This document shows, one piece after another, positions 9,851 to 20,963 of a DNA stretch of 64,000 nucleotides. Under the pieces are notes generated by a model. That model made no database searches. It had not been told where the DNA came from and was given only the letters and a program-made list of their open reading frames with translations. How positions within the stretch are numbered: position 1 is the first letter of the stretch; every line of letters starts with the position of its first letter. A program made the translations under genes and the position numbers. The stretch comes from Naegleria gruberi (Eukaryota). Where the stretch lies: the NCBI GenBank assembly GCA_000004985.1, contig GG738859.1; one strand, 5' to 3'.

Positions 9851-10336
9851 ATGCTGACCTCAAAAACAAGAAGAGACAGTAGTGAGAGGAGTAGAACAGG
9901 AAGCACGCAGAGAGTGATTAGACAAAATGGAGAGTTGTTTGGAGTGATACACGAAAGTAGAGCATCAAAAACAGCAAGGGATGATTACTTTCGACCGGAA
10001 TCAACCTACTCATCATCATTTGTAGTACCTAGAACATCCGATCAGCTCAACTCATCAGGTTCTTCTTTTAAAAAACCATTAATGCCTTATAAAATGAATG
10101 CTCCTAGAAATATGCTACCAGTTAGATTCTCTCATGATACTGTTCAAGGAAGGAAGAATGCCAGAAACAGCAGTCAATTCAATCTGAGGGATGGAGCTAA
10201 TTCTGATCGAACACGGTTTAGGACAACCAATCAAGTGAGCTACATTAATCATTCGGGTGGTCTTCCTGTTGGATTTGAAAATAAGGGGATACTGAGCGAG
10301 AAAACAAAGTGGTTCCACAAACGTCAAATGGATTAA
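9851..10336 (+). CDS. Hypothetical S/R-rich protein (161 aa); low confidence
   Basis: ATG in an AAAAAAAAAATG context, but codon usage (CGA/CGG/AGG/ACG) differs from neighbouring genes. It is flanked by unusually long non-coding stretches (577 and 612 bp). Confidence 0.3.
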   Translation: MLTSKTRRDSSERSRTGSTQRVIRQNGELFGVIHESRASKTARDDYFRPESTYSSSFVVPRTSDQLNSSGSSFKKPLMPYKMNAPRNMLPVRFSHDTVQGRKNARNSSQFNLRDGANSDRTRFRTTNQVSYINHSGGLPVGFENKGILSEKTKWFHKRQMD

Positions 10337-10949: not shown

Positions 10950-12380
10950 ATGACGCAAGAGGATCCATACGGAAACGATGAAGATCTTCTCATAATTGAC
11001 AATCATAAACCCCTTAGTGTTGTTCAACAACTTGTACCAAAGGAGGAACCACCTCAGTCAAAACTTCCACTGGAAGAAATAGCAGAAAATGAGCGTTCAA
11101 CCTTAACAAAGAGTACCTCTCATCCTAATTCTCTTTCTCCTCGATTGAATTCGCTATCTATTGTGAATAGTGAAAATAATGGAGTTGTTTCTCAAAGTAG
11201 TATAAGAAGAAAATCAATTGTATCTAATAGTCCTATCATTCCTCCTAAAACCTTCTCATCACTTAAAGATGATTTTAAAATAATGTATAGAGTCTTTACT
11301 CATCTTACCTATGTAGAATTAATCCGAGTTGGAAATACTTGTTCTTTCTGGAGAATGATACTAAGAGATTGTGAAAAACTTAGCAAACAAAAAGAGAAAC
11401 TCATGGGTGTTGAGTACGTCGATTTATATGAGAGAGAATGCAAAAGATTATGGCCTTCTAATCATGATGTGTCGAGATACCCACCAGAGAGGCCACTTGC
11501 ACCAACTGCTGAAACATTCAAAGTGAAAAATGATGACGAGGAAGAAATTAAACCATCATCACAAAGAAGAGCATCCATCCTTGAACTTGACACAGGAGGT
11601 TATAGAAGAATGCTTCTCGATAGAAATAGAGAAAACGAGTTATTCCCTATTGTATATTTAGAATTTTCAAAAACATCAAGACAATCCTATCTAAGCAATA
11701 ACAGTAGTGAATTTGTGAGTTTGGGAAGAGTTGAAATTAAATTGAATAAGAAAGAAGCCCCTAAGGCAGCAGAGAATTTTAGATGTTTGTGCACAGGAGA
11801 AAAGGGATTATCTCCAAATTCAATTCCTCTCTATTTTAAGGGTGCAACCATGCACAAAGCACTCCAAGCCACTTTTATTCAGGGTGGTGATATTGTCTAT
11901 TCAGGTGCTAGTGGATGGTGGCAAGCTCAATATGGAAAGGAAATTGCATCATCAAGAAACGACCCAATTGCAGTAGAGGGAGAAGGATCTGAAAGCATTT
12001 ATGGACAAACTTTTGATAGTGACTCCAGTGAATTATGTCACAATCCTGGATCCGTTTCTTGTGTTGTTAAACCTGGTAATGGATGTCAATTTAATATTTG
12101 TGTAACAAAGTGTAAAGAGCTAGATGGAAAGCAAATTGTATTTGGAGAAGTTGTTAAAGGTCAAGAAGTTGTCAGAAAGATTGAAACAATTATCCTTATT
12201 GCTCAGCAAGCCGCACCTGAAGATCAAGAGGTGGTCTTTATCAAGGCTTGTGGTCAAACTGGTTTCAGTGGAAAAACATTCGACATGTGGACTCATGAAA
12301 TACTGACCGAGGTAATGGAAGAACCAAAAACAGTTGTACGAAATGAACCAGTGAAATCGAGAACATGCCAAATTTTATAA
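10950..12380 (+). CDS. F-box protein with a C-terminal cyclophilin-type peptidyl-prolyl isomerase domain
   Basis: F-box-like segment FKIMYRVFTHLTYVELIRVGNTCSFWRMIL. C-terminal LGRVEIKLNKKEAPKAAENFRCLCTGEKG...YFKGATMHKALQATFIQGGDIV...SIYGQTFDSD...GNGCQFNICVTKCKELDGKQIVFGEVVKGQEVVRKIE is collinear with cyclophilin A (GRVxFELFxDxxPKTAENFRALCTGEKG...HRxIPxFMxQGGDF...SIYGxxFxDE...GxxTNGSQFFITTxxTxWLDGKHVVFGxV). Confidence 0.7.
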   Translation: MTQEDPYGNDEDLLIIDNHKPLSVVQQLVPKEEPPQSKLPLEEIAENERSTLTKSTSHPNSLSPRLNSLSIVNSENNGVVSQSSIRRKSIVSNSPIIPPKTFSSLKDDFKIMYRVFTHLTYVELIRVGNTCSFWRMILRDCEKLSKQKEKLMGVEYVDLYERECKRLWPSNHDVSRYPPERPLAPTAETFKVKNDDEEEIKPSSQRRASILELDTGGYRRMLLDRNRENELFPIVYLEFSKTSRQSYLSNNSSEFVSLGRVEIKLNKKEAPKAAENFRCLCTGEKGLSPNSIPLYFKGATMHKALQATFIQGGDIVYSGASGWWQAQYGKEIASSRNDPIAVEGEGSESIYGQTFDSDSSELCHNPGSVSCVVKPGNGCQFNICVTKCKELDGKQIVFGEVVKGQEVVRKIETIILIAQQAAPEDQEVVFIKACGQTGFSGKTFDMWTHEILTEVMEEPKTVVRNEPVKSRTCQIL

Positions 12381-12512: not shown

Positions 12513-15451
12513 ATGAGCACACATCATCGTAGTTCAAGTCTCCATCAGGAGAATAAAAAACACAAATCAAAGCACATCAGTAAGCGTCAATTAAAGAAGG
12601 AAAGTAAAGGTCGTGTTGAACATGAAGGTGGTCTCAAAGCATCTCAAATGAAGAAGACTCATCAAAACGCCAAAGCTCAACGTAAACAACGTGCTAAACA
12701 AGTTCGGGATAACAAGAAACAACAAATTTTATATAGACAACGTTTGGGAAGAAGTGGCAATCCACCAAGAATTGTCTCTGTCATGTCTTTGAGTGGACAA
12801 GGTATGTTGATGATTTAAATTTCCTCCGAGTTTTAACCGAATTAAAAGATGAAGGAGAAGTTGAAAGTGTATTTTCTGATATTATGAGTAGAAGTGAAGA
12901 ATTTGAAAGTGGAAAAATTAATTTGAATGATTTGGATTTTTCTAGTGTTCGTTCAATTCGGTAGGTAATCAAATGATAATTGACTAACCATTTCAATAGT
13001 CTTCAAAAGGAATTCCAACAAAAATCACTTACTCTCTTCTGTGTGAAACAAGCAAATTCTAGATCTGTTTTGGATGCTGCTAAAGTTTCCGATATTATGA
13101 TTTTTGTTCTTCCAGCTCAAAGTATTCAATTCAATGGTAATCAAGAACCATCCTTACATCCAACTGCTAAATATAATCTCTCACTTCTTAGAGCTCAAGG
13201 TTTACCATCTAGTATTGTCGTTTTACAAGGATTGAATCAAATTTCTCAAAAAAAGCAAAATGATGTGAAACAAGTTGTTAACAAGATTATGAAGGATGAA
13301 ATTCCAGACTTTGAAAAGGTCTTTTCATTGACTTCAACAACAAATAGTATGGATGATTCTGCCAATTTTGAAACTACCAAGACAGAAATGAAACAAATTT
13401 TGTTACGTTTGAATTCATTAACACCAAAAACTATCTATTGGAGAGAAAATCATCCATACATGATTGTGGAAAATCTTGAATTCATCAAGAAGGATCAATC
13501 TGAAATCAATGAATTATCAGATGAAAATAGTAATAATGGTACACTTGTTATTCGTGGATATTTACGTGGTAAACCAGCCAGTCCAAATCAACTTTTCCAT
13601 CTTGTCAATTATGGTACTTATCAATTGGATAAAATTGTTTTGGAAAAGGAAAATTCACATGCTTACTCAAAGAAGAAACAACAAGGTTCTAGTTCAAATG
13701 CAATGGAAGATGACAAGGTTGGTACTAGTCAAATGAGTACAACTGCTGATTCCAATGAACCAAAAACCTTGTTACCAGATGAAAAGCAAGAATCTCTTCA
13801 AACTGCTCTTGAACCAAATCTTATGGATGGTGAACAAACCTTGCCAACCAAGGAAGATTATGAAATGGAATTGGCTAACCAAATTACTGAAAAACAAGCT
13901 GGTTATGTTTACCATAAGAAGGTTGTTCCAAAGGGTATGACTCCAACTGAAGCTGCTTGGATTATTGACCATTTGGAAGATGCTGAAGAAGACCAATCCG
14001 ATGAGGAAGAAGATGAAATGATTGATGAAGCCAACAGAGCTGTTGCTGCTGATGAAGAAGAAAGACGTGTCGATTTCAATTTTGATATTGCTTCTGAAGC
14101 TCAAACTCATATTGAAAAACACTTCAACTTGGACGAAATGGATGAAGATATGACTGAAGAAGAAAGAATTGCTGAAATGATGCGTGCCATTAAATCCAGA
14201 AAGGAGATGAAGAATGAAATGGATTATCCTGATGAAGTTGATACACCATTAGATATTCCAGCTCGTGTCCGTTTCCAAAAATACAGAGGTTTGAAATCAT
14301 TCAGATCTTCACCATGGGATGCTGAAGAAAATTTACCATTGGATTATTCACGTATTTTCAGATTTAAGAATTTCCAAACATCTCAAAAGCTTGCTTTGGA
14401 AGGTTTTGATCCAGAAAATGATTACAATTTATGGGAAAATTATATCACTCTCCACATTGCTAATGTTCCAGCCAACATGTGTGAAGTTATTCAACAAAAG
14501 AAGGAACCACTCATTGTCTTTGGTTTACTTAAACACGAACAAAAGACCAGTCTTGTCCATTTACTTGTAAAGAGAACTAACGACTCAGTTGTTGTTAAAC
14601 AATCAACAAGTTATGATCCATCTGATAATATTACAAAGATGATTGAATACCATCCTCAAGAAGACGATGATGGTGAAGAAGAGCCAATACCTGGTGCTGA
14701 AGTTGAAGAAAATCCAATCAAATCTAAGGATGAACTTATTATTCAAATTGGTTTCAGAACATTTAAATGTAATCCTATTTATTCGGAACATAATCCTAGA
14801 AATGATAAGCACAAATACGAAAGATTCTTTGCTCCATATCGTTTCCTTATTGCCACAGTGTATGCTCCAGTAACCTTTAAACCTGCACCTGTTTTAATGT
14901 TCCGAAGGAATAATAAGAATACCATGTCACTTGTTGACAATATGATTGTACAAACTGAACCATCACAAACTCTTGATCAACCAAATCTTGACTTTGTTGG
15001 TCATGGCACAGTTCACGGTGTTGATCCATACCGTAGAGTTATTAAGAAGATTATTCTTACTGGTCACCCTTACAAACTTCATAAGAATCAAGTTGTTGCT
15101 CGTTACATGTTCTTCAATCCAGAAGATATTCGTTGGTTCAAACCAGTTGAAGTTTATACTAAATATGGTAGACATGGTATTATCAAAGAAGCTGTTGGTA
15201 CTCATGGTTATATGCGTTGTTTATTCGATGATATTGTCCTTCCAAAGGATACTATTTGTATGAATTTATACAAGAGAGTTTTCCCAAAGTGGACCACAGA
15301 GAGTTCATCCCTGTTAGCAGGTCCAACTATTTCAATTCCTCGTCCACTTAAACAAACTACATCATCTGGTGGTGCTTACCTCAATGAAGAAGCAATTAGA
15401 AGATTGGGTATTATGTCCAAATCTGAAGAATTAGAAATGATTGAAGACTAA
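12513..15451 (+). CDS. TSR1: Ribosome-biogenesis protein TSR1. Exons 12513..12801, 12831 or 12849..12960, and 13000..15451. Intron 1 is 12802..12830 or 12802..12848; intron 2 is 12961..12999.
   Basis: N-terminus MSTHHRSSSLHQENKKHKSKHISKRQLKK...PPRIVSVMSLSGQ matches yeast/human Tsr1. Intron 1 starts GTATGT at 12802, with two in-frame acceptors (CCGAG at 12830, AAAAG at 12848). Intron 2 is GTAGGTAATC..TGACTAACCATTTCAATAG (39 nt). Exon 3 carries the large Tsr1/AARP2CN body (GYLRGKP...HKYERF...GHGT..GVDPYRRVIKKIILTGHP..LHK...RYMFF..EDI.WFK...GRHGIIKE..GTHGYM). The track ORFs 12513..12818 and 12980..15451 are the two ends of this gene. Confidence 0.8.
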
Positions 15452-17768: not shown

Positions 17769-19930
17769 ATGAGCGCCAGAAGAGAAGCCGATAGCATCAC
17801 ACTCACACAATTAAAACAATTAGGATGTGAAGTTGAAGAGTCTGTTACTTCTATGGCTGATGTAGATAAATTCTTATTGTATAAAGCTACCGTTATTTGT
17901 CTTAGAGCTATTGCAAGAGGAAATAACAGAGAACCTGATGATTATCCGGAAGACCTTCCTTACGAAATTAGTACTTGTTTTAGAACCTGTACTGCTCTCA
18001 CCCAGTCTATCAAGGTTTGTAGATGACAATTAAAATTATATTGGAAATATTAATTATTTGGAATTAATCGGATCATCAAAATAATTAGGAATACGGATTT
18101 AGAGGAGATATGACTTTTGATCAATTTTTATATCCTAATGAAATGGTTACCCGTCATATTCTTATTTGGTTAGTTGAACAAGCAACATCTTTTATGACTG
18201 ATCAACAAAATAATGAAGGTGCTAACGAAGGAGAAGCAAGTAAGAGACAAACTGTTCAAGCCAGAATGAACTCGGTCCTTTCATTCTTTGTAAATTCTAC
18301 TTGGACTGTGAAAAATCAAAATGGTACCGAAAAAGTGTCAATTGATGTAACCTCTTCAACAAAGAGTTGGGATAATGAAAATATTCGATGGAATAGTTAT
18401 CCTGTGAATTCACAAGCTTCTATGAATGCCTTTTTGTTGGCTGCTTTGAAGAGTGGAGGTTTACCAACTGTTAGTAGAGATTCTGGACTTATGGAAAATT
18501 TAAAGTCAACATTTACTGTTGGAGGAAACGCTAATGATGAATTGTGTGAAAAACATGCCATGTTGTACTATAGAAAGTTTGGACCATACATTTCCGAACA
18601 AATTTTAGCAAAGGATCAAATGGCTTCCACTGTATTTGAAGAAAATGCTCGTGAATTATTATTGGAACAACAACGTGAGGACGAATGGAATGATTTGGGT
18701 ATTGATTCTGGATTAACTCGTGAAGAATACTTTAAACAAAAACAGCAAAAAATCAATACTAAGGTTTCAGATGTTCTTAAGGGAGGAAGTTCTAAATTTG
18801 TTGACAATGATGATTCTGCAAGCTCTGAAGATGGAATGCCATCCCTTTCTGACTTGTTGCAATCATTGAAGAATAATAGAAAGATTGATACATCATCAAC
18901 TTTCTCAAAGAGAAAACTCTTTGAAAATGAAACTGATGATGTGTCTAAAAAATTGCTCACTACCAATCCATTGGCTCCAAAAGAAAAGCAAAATGCAGCC
19001 AATATCGAAGAGGAAAAGAAGAGAAAGGAAGAGGAAAGACAACAAGAATTGGATGAATTACAATCTGTTTTGGATAAAGTTAATGAAAAGATTGATCAAG
19101 CTGAAACAGCTAAGGATACTCTTGTCTCAGAAATGAAAAAACTAGAAGAGGCCATCACAGAGGAAAAACAAAGAAAGAAACAATTGGAAGAGGAGTTTAC
19201 CATCAACAAGACTGCTGCTATTGTTTTGCAAGATAAGGAAAAGAACATTAAGCAATTAGAATCAATGACTGAACAAGCAGAACAACGATTAAAAACTCTG
19301 AAACAGGAATGGGAACAACACAGCACACCTCTGAAAGAAAGAGAAGCCATGTTAAAGGAAAAGATAAAAGATCAAAAGAACGAATACAAGGATTTGGTAA
19401 ATGTTTCAAAGGAACTTCGTGAACAAATGAATGAATTGATTCATACCATTAGATCCAAGGAAGAGTTAATTTCAAAGAAGAAACAAGAATATGAAGAAAT
19501 GCCAAAAGAATCAGATCGTGCCAGTTATGTTACCAGAATTTTGGATGTTGTTAAAAATGTGGAAAAGCAAAACGAAGAAATTAGCAAGGTACTTAAGCAA
19601 AGCAGAGAGTTGAGTGACAACACTAGTGATTTATCAGAAAAGCTCGGTAGAACCTTCCAAGAAAATGAAGAAAATATCTTCAAGGAAGCTCAAAAGGATA
19701 CTGAATACAAGCAACTTTACAAAGATCTCCTTGAAATTAGAAGTCTTTACGAAGCTCTAATTGAACAAGTTCAATTGAACGGCAAGGCTTTGAATACTAT
19801 CAGAGATTTGGACAATCAAATTGATGTCATTTCTGAACGTAATGATACTCTAAATATTGAGAAGATTACAAAGGATTTACAAACAATCCAAGAAGAGAAC
19901 GTAAAATTGCAAAAACAACTCATGAAGTAA
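17769..19930 (+). CDS. CCDC22: CCDC22 (Commander/CCC-complex coiled-coil protein). Exons 17769..18014 and 18089..19930, 74-nt intron at 18015..18088 (GTTTGT...AATTAG).
   Basis: Exon 1 MSARREADSITLTQLKQLGCEVEESV... matches the CCDC22 N-terminus (MEEADRILIHSLRQAG). Exon 2 starts EYGFRGDMTFDQFLYPNEMVTRHILIWLVEQ (human ...LGYQNFLYPSEPDLRDLLLFLAERL). C-terminal coiled coil SYVTRILDVVKNVEKQNEEISKVLKQSRELSDNTSDLSEKLGRTFQENEENIFKEAQKD matches human LAYTQRILEIVGNIRKQKEEITKILSDTKELQKEINSLSGKLDRTF. Confidence 0.75.
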
Positions 19931-19952: not shown

Positions 19953-20963
19953 TTATACTAATTGACCTTTTGATTTCTTCTTATCCCAAACAAATAAAAC
20001 TTGGTCTAAGAATTCTTGATCTTCTGAAACAATTTTTACAACTTGAAGTGAGCTTGGTGTGTTGTGTTCAATATCTCTTTCGTAGGCATATTTCAAAATT
20101 GAATCAATCATAATTTCGGCAGCTTTTCTCTTTGGGAAATTCAAACTCAAACAAGGCATTGAAACTACATGGCCTTCACATTCATCAACCTTGGCCAATG
20201 TTGCAAAAACTGTTTTTTCGAGAATATCTTCTTCCTTTGATTTACCTCCACTCCAAACAGGACCTGTGACATGAATCACATTTTTACACATTAAACTTCC
20301 ACCTTCACTAGGAACAACAAAGGCATTTGCTGGTTTGAGTTCTCCTCCAATTTTTTCCAAAGTAGCCTTACGTTTTTCCAAATACTTTTCACCACCTCTT
20401 CTGGAGATGTTATATGATAAAAAATCTTCTTCTTCCAATTTACCATTTGTTGGATTAACAATGACGTCAACCTTTTGAAGTGTTAAATCTCCTTTTGTAA
20501 CTTGAAGTTCCATAATTCTTCTTCTAAAAACAACAGCAGTCTTTCTCAAAATTTCTTCCTCCATATCTGTTTCTTTGAATTGGTCGGAAGCATACTTATA
20601 GAAAATTAAAATTGCTAAAACCGAAAGTGTAATAGTTCTGGCCATACTGAATACAGGATTTTCCTCCTTTTCTTGTTTTAAACGAGCTCTCAATTCAGGT
20701 GGAACACCTCCTGGTCTAGCATGGAAAGGAACATAGTCTTTAGAAACTTTACCAGTGAAGGCTGATTTAAAATCGGCATCATTGTCAGAGTAATTTGTCA
20801 ATGTAAATTTTGGATCACTTTTATCAGCACTAATTCTACCACTATGAAAACTTCTCATCAATTCGTTCATAATTCCACATCTGTTGCTCATCAGCCATTT
20901 CCGAGAAATATTCTTATTATTGGCGAGAACGGTTTTAATAATTGAAATTTCCCTCTTATTCAT
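19953..20963 (-). CDS. Macro-domain (ADP-ribose-binding) protein with an N-terminal transmembrane segment
   Basis: 336 aa. Hydrophobic helix MARTITLSVLAILIFYKY. The C-terminal ~170 aa show macro-domain landmarks (LTLQKVDVIVNPTNGKL...NVIHVTGPVWSGG...MPCLSLNFPKRKAAEIMIDSILKYA). Its stop lies 22 bp from the convergent CCDC22 stop. Confidence 0.55.
   Translation of the reverse strand: MNKREISIIKTVLANNKNISRKWLMSNRCGIMNELMRSFHSGRISADKSDPKFTLTNYSDNDADFKSAFTGKVSKDYVPFHARPGGVPPELRARLKQEKEENPVFSMARTITLSVLAILIFYKYASDQFKETDMEEEILRKTAVVFRRRIMELQVTKGDLTLQKVDVIVNPTNGKLEEEDFLSYNISRRGGEKYLEKRKATLEKIGGELKPANAFVVPSEGGSLMCKNVIHVTGPVWSGGKSKEEDILEKTVFATLAKVDECEGHVVSMPCLSLNFPKRKAAEIMIDSILKYAYERDIEHNTPSSLQVVKIVSEDQEFLDQVLFVWDKKKSKGQLV

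What the first reader, a model, noticed from the sequence alone, without database searches (positions are those of the whole stretch)
10950..12380. F-box domain fused to a cyclophilin-type PPIase domain
A single intron-less ORF combines an N-terminal F-box-like motif (FKIMYRVFTHLTYVELIRVGNTCSFWRMIL) with a C-terminal cyclophilin fold. The cyclophilin part retains most catalytic landmarks (ENFRCLCTGEKG, KxxxxxFIQGGD, SIYG, NICVT, KQIVFGEV), though CypA R55 is Lys here.

This would place a prolyl isomerase, or a proline-directed substrate-recognition module, directly on an SCF ubiquitin ligase. I do not recognise this architecture from model organisms.
Basis: partly seen in the sequence, partly recalled or inferred. 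Interest (0 to 1): 0.55.

Follow-up and report, generated by a model that had tools for sequence, protein, structure and literature searches.

The report
Membrane-anchored F-box protein with degenerate cyclophilin
A Naegleria-type amoeba gene joins a ubiquitin-ligase adaptor motif (F-box) to a cyclophilin domain that has lost most of its catalytic residues and ends in a lipid-anchor signal, so it is most likely a membrane-bound ubiquitin-ligase substrate receptor, not a working prolyl isomerase; the family is uncharacterised and was found here only in heterolobosean amoebae.

Summary
The 476-aa intron-less ORF at 10950-12380 is real and under purifying selection. It has full-length relatives in Naegleria fowleri, N. 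lovaniensis and Willaertia magna, in two unnamed environmental sequences, and in an intron-split gene from an Acrasis-like heterolobosean.

- **Cyclophilin domain:** it is solid (Pfam 96 bits; Foldseek TM 0.84). However, 7 of the 9 residues held essential for isomerase activity are replaced (R55K, F60T, M61F, A101V, F113N, W121E, H126Q). A conserved 29-aa insertion also follows the GGD motif.
- **F-box:** it is below Pfam thresholds in this sequence. It passes in some relatives, and a family profile hits almost only F-box proteins in the PDB (15 of 16, best E=0.0036). Structure prediction of the F-box was inconclusive.
all seven members end in a CaaX prenylation box (CQIL/CLIL/CTIL/CTIF). CTIL is the geranylgeranylated motif of human FBXO10. 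Two conserved linker blocks were also missed.

My best reading is a geranylgeranyl-anchored Skp1-binding substrate receptor whose binding module is a cyclophilin pseudo-enzyme. The Acrasis-like member keeps a near-canonical active site, so catalysis was probably lost after the fusion. This is a new variant of known kinds (prenylated F-box proteins; E3-cyclophilin fusions). All function is inferred.

The parts
10950..12380 (+). Whole intron-less coding sequence, 476 aa plus stop
   Evidence: ORF list. It is collinear with the five closest relatives. The upstream neighbour is syntenic with N. fowleri. Overall pN is 0.26 against a saturated pS of 0.74 versus the closest relative.
10977..11003 (+). 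Short conserved N-terminal motif DEDLLIIDN (residues 10-18) within an otherwise poorly conserved, low-confidence region (residues 1-103)
   Evidence: DDDLLIIDN is identical in N. fowleri and N. lovaniensis; Willaertia has a similar SVIVLDN. AF2 pLDDT is below 50 across residues 1-105. Its function was not tested.
11259..11381 (+). F-box-like motif (residues 104-144)
   Evidence: In this sequence the Pfam scores are F-box-like 19.0 bits and F-box 15.5 bits, both sub-threshold. Some relatives pass the cut-offs. The family profile hits 15 F-box proteins among 16 PDB matches. pN is 0.10. AF2 predicts three helices at 103-117, 121-130 and 132-152, but at pLDDT about 46-56.
11421..11483 (+). Conserved linker block 1, DLYERECKRLWPSNHDVSRYP (residues 158-178)
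   Evidence: E64, C65, R67, W69, D74, R77 and Y78 (numbering of alignment A7) are invariant in all 7 members. pN for residues 146-178 is 0.11. The FBXW8 PDB match extends into this region.
11484..11573 (+). Variable acidic spacer (residues 179-208)
   Evidence: It is poorly conserved (32% aa identity, pN 0.46), absent from the Acrasis-like member, and has pLDDT below 50.
11574..11648 (+). Conserved linker block 2, SILELDTGGYRRMLLDRNRENELFP (residues 209-233), leading into cyclophilin strand 1
   Evidence: M122, N127, N130, F133 and P134 (A7 numbering) are invariant in 7 of 7 members. AF2 predicts helices at 213-222 and 226-231.
11649..12257 (+). Cyclophilin-like domain (residues 234-436), catalytically degenerate
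   Evidence: Pfam PF00160 at 96.4 bits, PDB matches, AF2 plus Foldseek. Substitutions are R55K, F60T, M61F, A101V, N102V, A103K, F113N, W121E and H126Q; Q63, Q111 and L122 are kept.
11892..11978 (+). 29-aa insertion after the GGD motif (residues 315-343), with conserved YSGxxGWW
   Evidence: HMMER splits the cyclophilin match into residues 258-317 and 343-436. The insertion is present in the window protein and P0001-P0004, replaced by a different insertion in Willaertia, and absent in the Acrasis-like member and in CypA. pLDDT is below 50; pN is 0.23.
12345..12377 (+). Conserved C-terminal tail EPVKSRTCQIL; the CaaX box CQIL is at 12366-12377 (residues 473-476)
   Evidence: All 7 family members end in C-x-I-[LF] preceded by K-S-[RK]-x. 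The last 11 residues are 100% identical to the closest relative while pS is 0.82. It is the only ORF of at least 150 aa among 37 in the window with such an ending. CTIL is the geranylgeranylated motif of human FBXO10 (PMC11042265).

Best explanation
The gene encodes a lipid-anchored F-box adaptor. The proposed mechanism has four steps.

1. The F-box (residues 104-144), extended by a conserved helical linker, docks onto Skp1 and hence onto a Cul1-Rbx1 core. This step is inferred.
2. The C-terminal CaaX box (CQIL, with X = Leu) is geranylgeranylated and holds the complex on a membrane. This is inferred from motif conservation and from human FBXO10 and FBXL2.
3. The cyclophilin-like domain takes the place that WD40, LRR or other domains occupy in other F-box proteins and serves as the substrate-binding module. 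It has lost the catalytic Arg and most other catalytic residues. It is therefore most likely a pseudo-enzyme that binds a target, possibly a proline-containing segment, and does not isomerise it.
4. The conserved 29-aa aromatic insertion (YSGxxGWW) follows the GGD motif. From knowledge of CypA structure, this is the loop bordering the binding groove, so the insertion probably reshapes that groove.

The Acrasis-like relative keeps a near-canonical active site with the same F-box, linker and CaaX. This suggests the fusion began with an active isomerase and that catalysis was lost in the Naegleria/Willaertia lineage.

Shown here: domain homologies, residue substitutions, conservation and selection, and taxonomic distribution. 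Inferred: Skp1/Cul1 binding, prenylation, loss of activity, and substrate binding.
For: - **Cyclophilin fold:**
- **Catalytic degeneration:** only Q63 and L122 of nine essential residues are kept. R55 is Lys in the five closest members and Ser in Willaertia. The residue list comes from PMC7641896.
- **F-box homology at family level:** Pfam cut-offs are passed in N. lovaniensis, N. fowleri and P0122. PDB profile searches returned 12 of 12 and then 15 of 16 F-box proteins, best E=0.0036.
- **Domain order:** the cyclophilin-like domain lies C-terminal to the F-box, where F-box proteins normally carry their substrate-binding domain. Some PDB matches run past the F-box into the linker (FBXW8).
- **CaaX box:** C-x-I-[LF] in 7 of 7 members. 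Over the last 11 codons pN=0 while pS=0.82.
- **Precedents:** human FBXO10 (CTIL) and FBXL2 are geranylgeranylated SCF receptors. Inactive cyclophilin-like domains serve as structural parts elsewhere, for example PPIL6, 'probable inactive', in axonemal structures.
- **Selection on each module separately:** pN is 0.10 in the F-box, 0.11 in linker block 1 and 0.14 in the N-terminal half of the cyclophilin-like domain, against 0.46-0.59 in the spacers.
- **Ancestral-like form:** the L006 protein keeps R55, F60, Q63, A101, N102, Q111, F113 and L122 with the same F-box, linker and CaaX plan.
Against: - The F-box is below Pfam thresholds in the window protein itself.
- The usual Leu-Pro at the start of the F-box is absent in the Naegleria and Willaertia members. 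Only L006 has a Phe-Pro at that position.
- AF2 gives only low confidence for the F-box: pLDDT about 46-56 in the full-length model and a mean of 53.5 for the isolated segment. Foldseek on the isolated model found nothing.
- Nothing here tests Skp1 or Cul1 binding, prenylation or enzymatic activity.
- Lys at position 55 is a conservative change and Q63, Q111 and L122 persist, so residual activity cannot be excluded.
- The segment aligned to CypA 101-103 is remodelled and varies among members. Even proline-peptide binding is therefore uncertain.
- No transcript evidence was obtained.
Confidence: 0.45

Rival explanations
1. A non-SCF Skp1/F-box complex at membranes, as with yeast Rcy1p. In this reading the protein binds Skp1 but does not assemble a Cul1 ligase. 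It acts in membrane traffic or recycling, with the cyclophilin-like domain as an interaction or chaperone module.
For: F-box plus C-terminal CaaX is also the plan of Rcy1p, an F-box protein of endocytic recycling (PMC2175155). That Rcy1p works with Skp1 outside a Cul1 complex is my own knowledge and was not checked here. The CaaX box is conserved in 7 of 7 members. Nothing here shows Cul1 involvement.
Against: No sequence similarity to Rcy1p was found in any search. Prenylated F-box proteins that do form SCF ligases also exist, namely FBXL2 and FBXO10.
Confidence: 0.2
2. An active prolyl isomerase tethered to SCF or Skp1. In this reading the domain still catalyses cis/trans isomerisation of substrates or of SCF components at the membrane.
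For: The fold and many motif residues are intact, and Q63, Q111 and L122 are kept. R55K is a conservative change. The Acrasis-like member keeps R55, F60, F113 and N102, so the fusion may have arisen with an active enzyme.
Against: In the window protein 7 of 9 essential residues are changed, including R55, F60, F113 and H126. Willaertia has Ser at position 55, Asp at 54 and Lys at 63, so catalytic residues are not under selection across the clade. An insertion and a remodelled 101-103 segment flank the site.
Confidence: 0.12
3. The F-box-like helices no longer bind Skp1, or never did. In this reading the protein is simply a prenylated cyclophilin-like protein with an N-terminal helical region of another function.
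For: Pfam scores are sub-threshold in the window protein and in P0001 and P0002. The Leu-Pro is missing. The structural tests were inconclusive.
Against: The segment is among the most constrained in the gene (pN 0.10). It passes curated cut-offs in three relatives. The family profile matches almost exclusively F-box proteins in the PDB.
Confidence: 0.15
4. A chance ORF, a pseudogene or an assembly chimera joining two genes.
For: The exact protein is absent from the public protein collection.
Against: A 476-codon ORF is present in AT-rich DNA. The same architecture occurs in seven independent sequences from at least three genera or lineages. Purifying selection is strong. The upstream neighbour is syntenic with N. 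fowleri.
Confidence: 0.02

Closest known systems
Human FBXO10 and FBXL2 (geranylgeranylated SCF substrate receptors)
   Same: Both combine an F-box with a C-terminal CaaX box whose prenylation places the ligase on a membrane. FBXO10's motif is CTIL, identical to the ending of the N. fowleri and L006 members and one residue from this protein's CQIL (PMC11042265; PMC5627969 and PMC9988375).
   Different: Their substrate-binding domains are of other types: PBH1 in the FBXO10 domain schematic and leucine-rich repeats in FBXL2 (my knowledge). No homology beyond the F-box was detected. FBXL2 has palmitoylated cysteines next to its CaaX motif; the window protein's conserved tail EPVKSRTCQIL has only the CaaX cysteine.
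Yeast Rcy1p
   Same: An F-box protein with a CAAX box that acts at endosomal membranes (PMC2175155).
   Different: It is a large protein with no cyclophilin domain. It is reported to act outside a Cul1 complex (my knowledge). No sequence similarity was detected.
PPIL2 / Cyp60 (U-box plus cyclophilin)
   Same: A cyclophilin-family domain fused in one polypeptide to a ubiquitin-ligase module (PMC5833831).
   Different: Its E3 module is a U-box, which binds the E2 directly, and is not an F-box adaptor. No U-box was found in the window protein. PPIL2 is nuclear and widespread in eukaryotes (PMC3087547 and PMC6315705; my knowledge), and I know of no CaaX box in it.
TRIM5-CypA fusions (TRIMCyp) and the cyclophilin domain of RanBP2/Nup358
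   Same: A cyclophilin domain is used as the target-recognition module of a RING E3 ligase (TRIMCyp) or is attached to a SUMO E3 ligase (RanBP2). These rest on my knowledge and were not tested here.
   Different: TRIMCyp arose by CypA retrotransposition in primates and keeps an essentially intact CypA. Neither has an F-box or a prenyl anchor.
Wheat TaCYP23-2-6B, TaCYP26-1-6B and TaCYP26-6-6A
   Same: They are tabulated as cyclophilins carrying an F-box domain (PMC7641896 Table 5, citing Singh et al. 2019).
   Different: They are known only from in-silico domain listing, and their names indicate small proteins of about 23-26 kDa. They did not appear in the exhaustive F-box/linker profile search, which fits an independent fusion.
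Inactive cyclophilin-like domains such as PPIL6
   Same: The cyclophilin fold is retained as a structural or binding module without expected catalysis. PPIL6 is named 'probable inactive' and is built into axonemal doublet microtubules; it is among the PDB matches.
   Different: The partner domains and the cellular context are different.

Membership tests
F-box proteins (Pfam PF00646 / PF12937) | The sequence itself matches the F-box model above the curated threshold | tested here: not met
   For the window protein, F-box-like scores 19.0 bits (cut-off 24.3) and F-box scores 15.5 bits (cut-off 20.5) over residues 110-144.
F-box proteins (Pfam PF00646 / PF12937) | Homology of the family's segment to bona fide F-boxes | tested here: met
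   N. lovaniensis scores 27.0, N. fowleri 27.9 and 23.6, and P0122 20.9 bits, all above the cut-offs. Family profiles against the PDB hit 12 of 12 and then 15 of 16 F-box proteins, including FBXO22, FBXO5, FBXW7, Cdc4, FBXL5, FBXW8, FBXO6, KDM2B, FBXO44 and Skp2. The best E-value is 0.0036.
F-box proteins (Pfam PF00646 / PF12937) | Three-helix F-box fold | tested here: inconclusive
   AF2 places three helices at 103-117, 121-130 and 132-152, but at pLDDT about 46-56. The isolated segment has a mean pLDDT of 53.5. Foldseek found no significant match.
F-box proteins (Pfam PF00646 / PF12937) | Conserved Leu-Pro at the start of the motif | tested here: not met
   The Pfam matches start at model position 7-8. 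The window protein has SLKDDF at this point, and only the Acrasis-like member has a Pro (HFPNVF). Many genuine F-boxes also lack the Pro (my knowledge).
F-box proteins (Pfam PF00646 / PF12937) | Binds Skp1 and, for SCF receptors, assembles with Cul1/Rbx1 | not testable with these tools
   No complex prediction or experiment was available.
Cyclophilin-type PPIases (Pfam PF00160) | Cyclophilin beta-barrel fold and sequence homology | tested here: met
   PF00160 matches at E=2.7e-27 and 96.4 bits. PDB cyclophilins match at E=5e-26. AF2 pLDDT is about 86-98 over most of the domain. Foldseek TM to target is 0.84-0.85.
Cyclophilin-type PPIases (Pfam PF00160) | Catalytic and substrate-site residues R55, F60, M61, Q63, A101, F113, W121, L122 and H126 (hCypA numbering) | tested here: not met
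   The window protein has K, T, F, Q, V, N, E, L and Q at these positions, so 2 of 9 are retained. The residue list is from PMC7641896.
Cyclophilin-type PPIases (Pfam PF00160) | Measurable PPIase activity and cyclosporin A binding | not testable with these tools
   W121E predicts loss of cyclosporin binding, because Trp121 is described as essential for it. No assay was possible.
CaaX-prenylated proteins | Cys at position -4, an aliphatic residue at a2, and a C-terminal residue that specifies the transferase (Leu or Phe for GGTase-I; my knowledge) | tested here: met
   The window protein ends in CQIL. The family endings are CQIL (three members), CLIL, CTIL (two members) and CTIF. CTIL is geranylgeranylated in human FBXO10.
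CaaX-prenylated proteins | The motif is maintained by selection and is not a chance ending | tested here: met
   It is conserved in 7 of 7 members across lineages with only 35-67% overall identity. Over the last 11 codons pN=0.00 while pS=0.82. Only 1 of 37 ORFs of at least 150 aa in the window ends this way.
CaaX-prenylated proteins | Actual lipid modification and membrane association | not testable with these tools
   This needs metabolic labelling or localisation of a Cys-to-Ser mutant.
U-box cyclophilins (PPIL2/Cyp60) | An N-terminal U-box domain | tested here: not met
   No U-box family appears in the Pfam scan up to E=10.

The most novel reading that the evidence does not exclude
A cyclophilin pseudo-enzyme has been co-opted as the degron reader of a geranylgeranyl-anchored SCF ligase. 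The dead active-site groove, reshaped by the YSGxxGWW insertion, would recognise a proline-containing segment of membrane-proximal substrates, perhaps in a specific cis or trans state. The family would record the transition from an active isomerase fusion (the Acrasis-like member) to a pure binding module (Naegleria, Willaertia).
Probability: 0.25. Interest if true: 0.7.

Novelty: new variant of a known kind. Interest (0 to 1): 0.45.

Why it matters
F-box proteins are defined by the substrate-binding domain they carry, and a cyclophilin fold in that position has not been characterised experimentally. If the reading holds, it adds a new class of substrate receptor. It would also be a clean natural example of an enzyme fold turned into a recognition module, with an apparently ancestral near-active form still available for comparison.

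The combination with a prenyl anchor points to ubiquitylation at a specific membrane. That topic is only now being worked out in human cells through FBXL2 and FBXO10.

One member belongs to Naegleria fowleri, a lethal human pathogen, and no relative of the family's F-box/linker region was found outside heterolobosean amoebae. The finding is still modest in scope: the family is small and lineage-restricted, and every functional step is inferred from sequence.

Tried and rejected
1. **Apparent second tier of homologues.** P0005-P0016 (E from 1e-62 to 1e-35) looked like distant family members. They are proteins with tandem cyclophilin domains whose scores add up across the repeats: the six that were Pfam-scanned (P0005-P0010) have three, and the read sequences of P0011-P0016 show two or three. 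They have no F-box, so I rejected them as orthologues.
2. **Word-indexed search with the 7-member F-box/linker profile.** It returned only P0122 and failed to recover the known orthologues. I treat it as uninformative and rely on the exhaustive search.
3. **Two metagenome DNA scans with family-specific patterns.** They found no confirmed relatives, not even L006.
4. **Structural proof of the F-box.** The full-length AF2 model and the isolated F-box/linker AF2 model were both low-confidence in that region. Foldseek on the isolated model gave only meaningless hits with E above 5.
5. **Exact look-up of the window protein.** It is not on record. Two neighbouring ORFs, the 161-aa ORF at 9851-10336 and the 606-aa ORF at 18110-19930, match only an ENA metagenome assembly, ERZ929261. 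The species therefore could not be named.
6. **Literature searches.**
   - Naegleria plus F-box plus cyclophilin gave only irrelevant papers.
   - 'Cyclophilin domain' plus F-box plus 'domain architecture' gave none.
   - Skp1 prolyl hydroxylation in Naegleria gave none, so I dropped the idea of a link to that pathway for lack of any support.
7. **Paralogue in the window.** None was found.
8. **Hidden intron or frameshift splitting the ORF.** Rejected, because the relatives are collinear over the full length.
Full report
**Source and context**

The window is AT-rich eukaryotic DNA (GC 0.30-0.36). The finding's ORF is exactly as described: 10950..12380 on the + strand, 476 aa.

- The closest named relatives are hypothetical proteins of Naegleria lovaniensis (C9374_002858) and N. 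fowleri (FDP41_003616), at 49-50% identity over the conserved 79% of the query.
- The small gene upstream (9851-10336) is 58% identical (E=7e-68) to the gene immediately upstream of the N. fowleri orthologue. The window gene is therefore its positional orthologue in a Naegleria-like genome.
- The exact protein is not in the public collection.
- Two neighbouring ORFs match exactly only an ENA metagenome assembly, ERZ929261, so the species cannot be named.
- The downstream gene is a TSR1 ribosome-biogenesis homologue.

**Is the ORF one real gene?**

By my own estimate, an open frame of 476 codons at this base composition has a chance probability of about 5e-16. The protein is collinear from its N-terminal motif (DEDLLIIDN versus DDDLLIIDN) to its last residue with the N. 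fowleri and N. lovaniensis proteins. The N. fowleri gene is also a single 1755-nt exon.

I compared the ORF codon by codon with its closest relative, a Logan contig with 61% amino-acid identity over 436 aligned codons (67% in the multiple alignment). Synonymous sites are saturated (pS 0.67-0.91). Non-synonymous divergence is strongly uneven:

| Region | pN |
|---|---|
| F-box | 0.10 |
| Linker block 1 | 0.11 |
| N-terminal half of the cyclophilin domain | 0.14 |
| C-terminal half of the cyclophilin domain | 0.26 |
| Last 11 residues | 0.00 |
| N-terminal tail | 0.59 |
| Acidic spacer | 0.46 |

Each module is under its own constraint. A pseudogene, a chimera or a hidden intron is excluded.

**The cyclophilin domain**

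Homology is beyond doubt:
- Pfam PF00160 matches at E=2.7e-27 and 96.4 bits.
- PDB cyclophilins match down to E=5e-26.
- AF2 pLDDT is about 86-98 over most of the domain.
- Foldseek TM-scores to crystal structures reach 0.85.

I aligned the protein to human CypA and used the residue set described as essential for PPIase activity: Arg55, Phe60, Met61, Gln63, Ala101, Phe113, Trp121, Leu122 and His126 (PMC7641896).

- The window protein has K, T, F, Q, V, N, E, L and Q at these positions, so only Q63 and L122 are kept.
- N102 and A103 are also changed (to V and K), and that loop is two residues shorter than in CypA.
- Position 55 is Lys in the five closest members and Ser in Willaertia. Willaertia also has H54D and Q63K.
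- F113 is N, T, M, I, M or I across those six members.
- W121 is Glu or Asp throughout those six members. The same review describes Trp121 as essential for cyclosporin binding.
- HMMER splits the match at residues 317/343. This reflects a 29-aa insertion after GGD that carries a conserved YSGxxGWW, modelled at pLDDT below 50.
- From knowledge of CypA structure, this loop borders the binding groove.

The domain is best described as a cyclophilin-like domain whose catalytic machinery is not under selection.

**The F-box**

In the window sequence alone the evidence is weak: 19.0 bits against a 24.3 cut-off, and 15.5 against 20.5. It becomes convincing at family level:

- The same segment passes the curated cut-offs in N. 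lovaniensis (27.0), N. fowleri (27.9 and 23.6) and P0122 (20.9). It is borderline in Willaertia (24.2).
- A five-member profile of the segment matched 12 PDB sequences at E up to 10, all of them F-box proteins.
- A seven-member profile matched 16, of which 15 are F-box proteins. These include FBXO22, FBXO5, FBXW7, FBXL5, Cdc4, FBXW8, FBXO6, KDM2B, FBXO44 and Skp2. The best E-value was 0.0036.

Caveats remain:
- The matches begin at model position 7-8.
- The usual Leu-Pro is absent in the Naegleria and Willaertia members.
- Two AF2 runs gave only low-confidence helices, and no Foldseek match resulted.

Homology to F-boxes is therefore supported. The fold and Skp1 binding remain untested.

1. 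**CaaX box.** All seven family members end in C-x-I-[LF]: CQIL in three, CLIL in one, CTIL in two and CTIF in one. It is preceded by K-S-[RK]-x. The tail is perfectly conserved against saturated synonymous change. It is the only such ending among 37 long ORFs in the window. With Leu or Phe as the last residue this is the geranylgeranyl-transferase-I type (my knowledge). Human FBXO10 ends in CTIL and is geranylgeranylated on that cysteine, which places SCF-FBXO10 on the outer mitochondrial membrane (PMC11042265). FBXL2 is another prenylated SCF receptor, and yeast Rcy1p is an F-box protein with a CAAX box.
2. **Linker blocks.** Two blocks between the F-box and the cyclophilin domain, DLYERECKRLWPxNxDVSRYP and GGYRxMLLDxNxENELFP, carry residues invariant in all members. 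They are separated by a variable acidic spacer that the most distant member lacks.
3. **N-terminal motif.** The short motif DEDLLIIDN is conserved.

**Distribution**

An exhaustive HMMER search of 1.84 billion representative proteins with the F-box/linker profile found only four representatives:

- the Naegleria lovaniensis protein P0003;
- P0001, which is from a Logan-assembled sequencing run (ERR2815185);
- Willaertia magna ABK040_016304 (P0121), which has the same full architecture and ends in CTIF;
- a 162-aa fragment, P0122.

Another environmental relative, P0002 (ENA assembly ERZ27250632), had been found by the first homology search.

P0122's contig (L006) carries an intron-split gene, which I reconstructed. 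It has three exons and two GTAAGT...TAG introns of 36 and 37 nt, and it encodes 345 aa.

- It has an F-box, both linker blocks with no spacer, a cyclophilin domain scoring 137 bits, and the ending KSKACTIL.
- Its cyclophilin domain is near-canonical. R55, F60, Q63, A101, N102, Q111, F113 and L122 are kept, there is no insertion, and only W121S and H126N stand out.
- The GatB gene on the same contig is closest to Acrasis kona (61%), ahead of Naegleria (52%) and Willaertia (49%).

The family therefore spans Heterolobosea. The simplest history, which is an inference, is a fusion with an active-type cyclophilin followed by loss of catalytic residues and gain of the insertion in the Naegleria/Willaertia branch.

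**Mechanism**

The order of the parts is: an F-box, then a conserved linker, then a globular domain in the position where F-box proteins carry their substrate binders, then a prenylation signal. This fits a membrane-anchored Skp1-binding adaptor whose cyclophilin-like domain captures the target.

Degenerate catalytic residues across the clade argue for binding rather than catalysis. Inactive cyclophilin-like domains used as structural modules have precedent, for example PPIL6, 'probable inactive', in axonemal structures.

The main rivals are:
- a non-SCF Skp1 complex of the Rcy1p kind;
- a still-active tethered isomerase;
- a vestigial F-box.

None can be excluded without experiments. I put 0.45 on the SCF-receptor reading as a whole.

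**Comparison with known systems and novelty**

- Ubiquitin-ligase/cyclophilin fusions are known: PPIL2/Cyp60 with a U-box, and TRIM5-CypA and RanBP2 (my knowledge).
- Prenylated F-box proteins are known.
- An F-box plus cyclophilin pairing is tabulated in silico for three wheat proteins.
- The surveys of human, fly, worm, yeast, apicomplexan and oomycete cyclophilins that my search returned do not contain the term F-box.
- The Naegleria and Willaertia proteins sit in databases as hypothetical proteins, and I found no paper on them.

The three-part plan of F-box, degenerate cyclophilin and CaaX is therefore a new variant of known kinds and is not a new category. It is moderately interesting: a clear, testable case of a pseudo-enzyme used as an F-box substrate module, with an ancestral-like active form available for comparison.

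Noticed in passing
window 10977-11003 (residues 10-18): The short acidic-hydrophobic motif DEDLLIIDN is conserved as DDDLLIIDN in N. fowleri and N. lovaniensis and as SVIVLDN in Willaertia, inside an otherwise unconserved, disordered N-terminal region. By eye it fits several short linear motif patterns (SUMO-interaction motif, clathrin box, DxxLL). None of these was tested.
   Followed up: no
window 9851-10336 (+): A 161-aa ORF with no Pfam match is 58% identical (E=7e-68) to the gene immediately upstream of the N. fowleri orthologue. It is a conserved, syntenic gene of unknown function.
   Followed up: partly
window 12513-15451 (+): This is a TSR1 ribosome-biogenesis homologue (RIBIOP_C, AARP2CN and Tsr1 G-like domains). 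A first ORF (12513-12818) stops just after a GTATGT, and coding-looking sequence continues in another frame before the long ORF at 12980. One or more short introns are likely. The exon structure was not resolved.
   Followed up: partly
L006 3958-3993 and 4317-4353: The Acrasis-like heterolobosean contig has very short introns (36 and 37 nt, GTAAGT...TAG). The prokaryote-style gene caller split its genes into fragments, so the family member there was recorded only as a 162-aa 'hypothetical protein'.
   Followed up: yes
window 18110-19930 (+) and 19953-20963 (-): These neighbouring genes encode a CCDC22-like protein and a Macro-domain protein. Exact copies occur on contigs of ENA metagenome assembly ERZ929261 (PRJEB11402), so the window's organism, or a near-identical strain, is present in that sample.
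   Followed up: partly
tool behaviour: The word-indexed homology search with the 7-member F-box/linker alignment returned only P0122 and missed P0001-P0004, which the exhaustive search recovered with E values down to 1e-66. Negative results from that tool with short alignments should not be trusted.
   Followed up: no
L002 1-237: The reading frame of the closest relative (P0001, Logan run ERR2815185) stays open upstream of its called Met to the contig end. P0001 is therefore 5'-truncated, and its N-terminal region is a long Asn/Ser/Thr-rich low-complexity stretch.
   Followed up: yes
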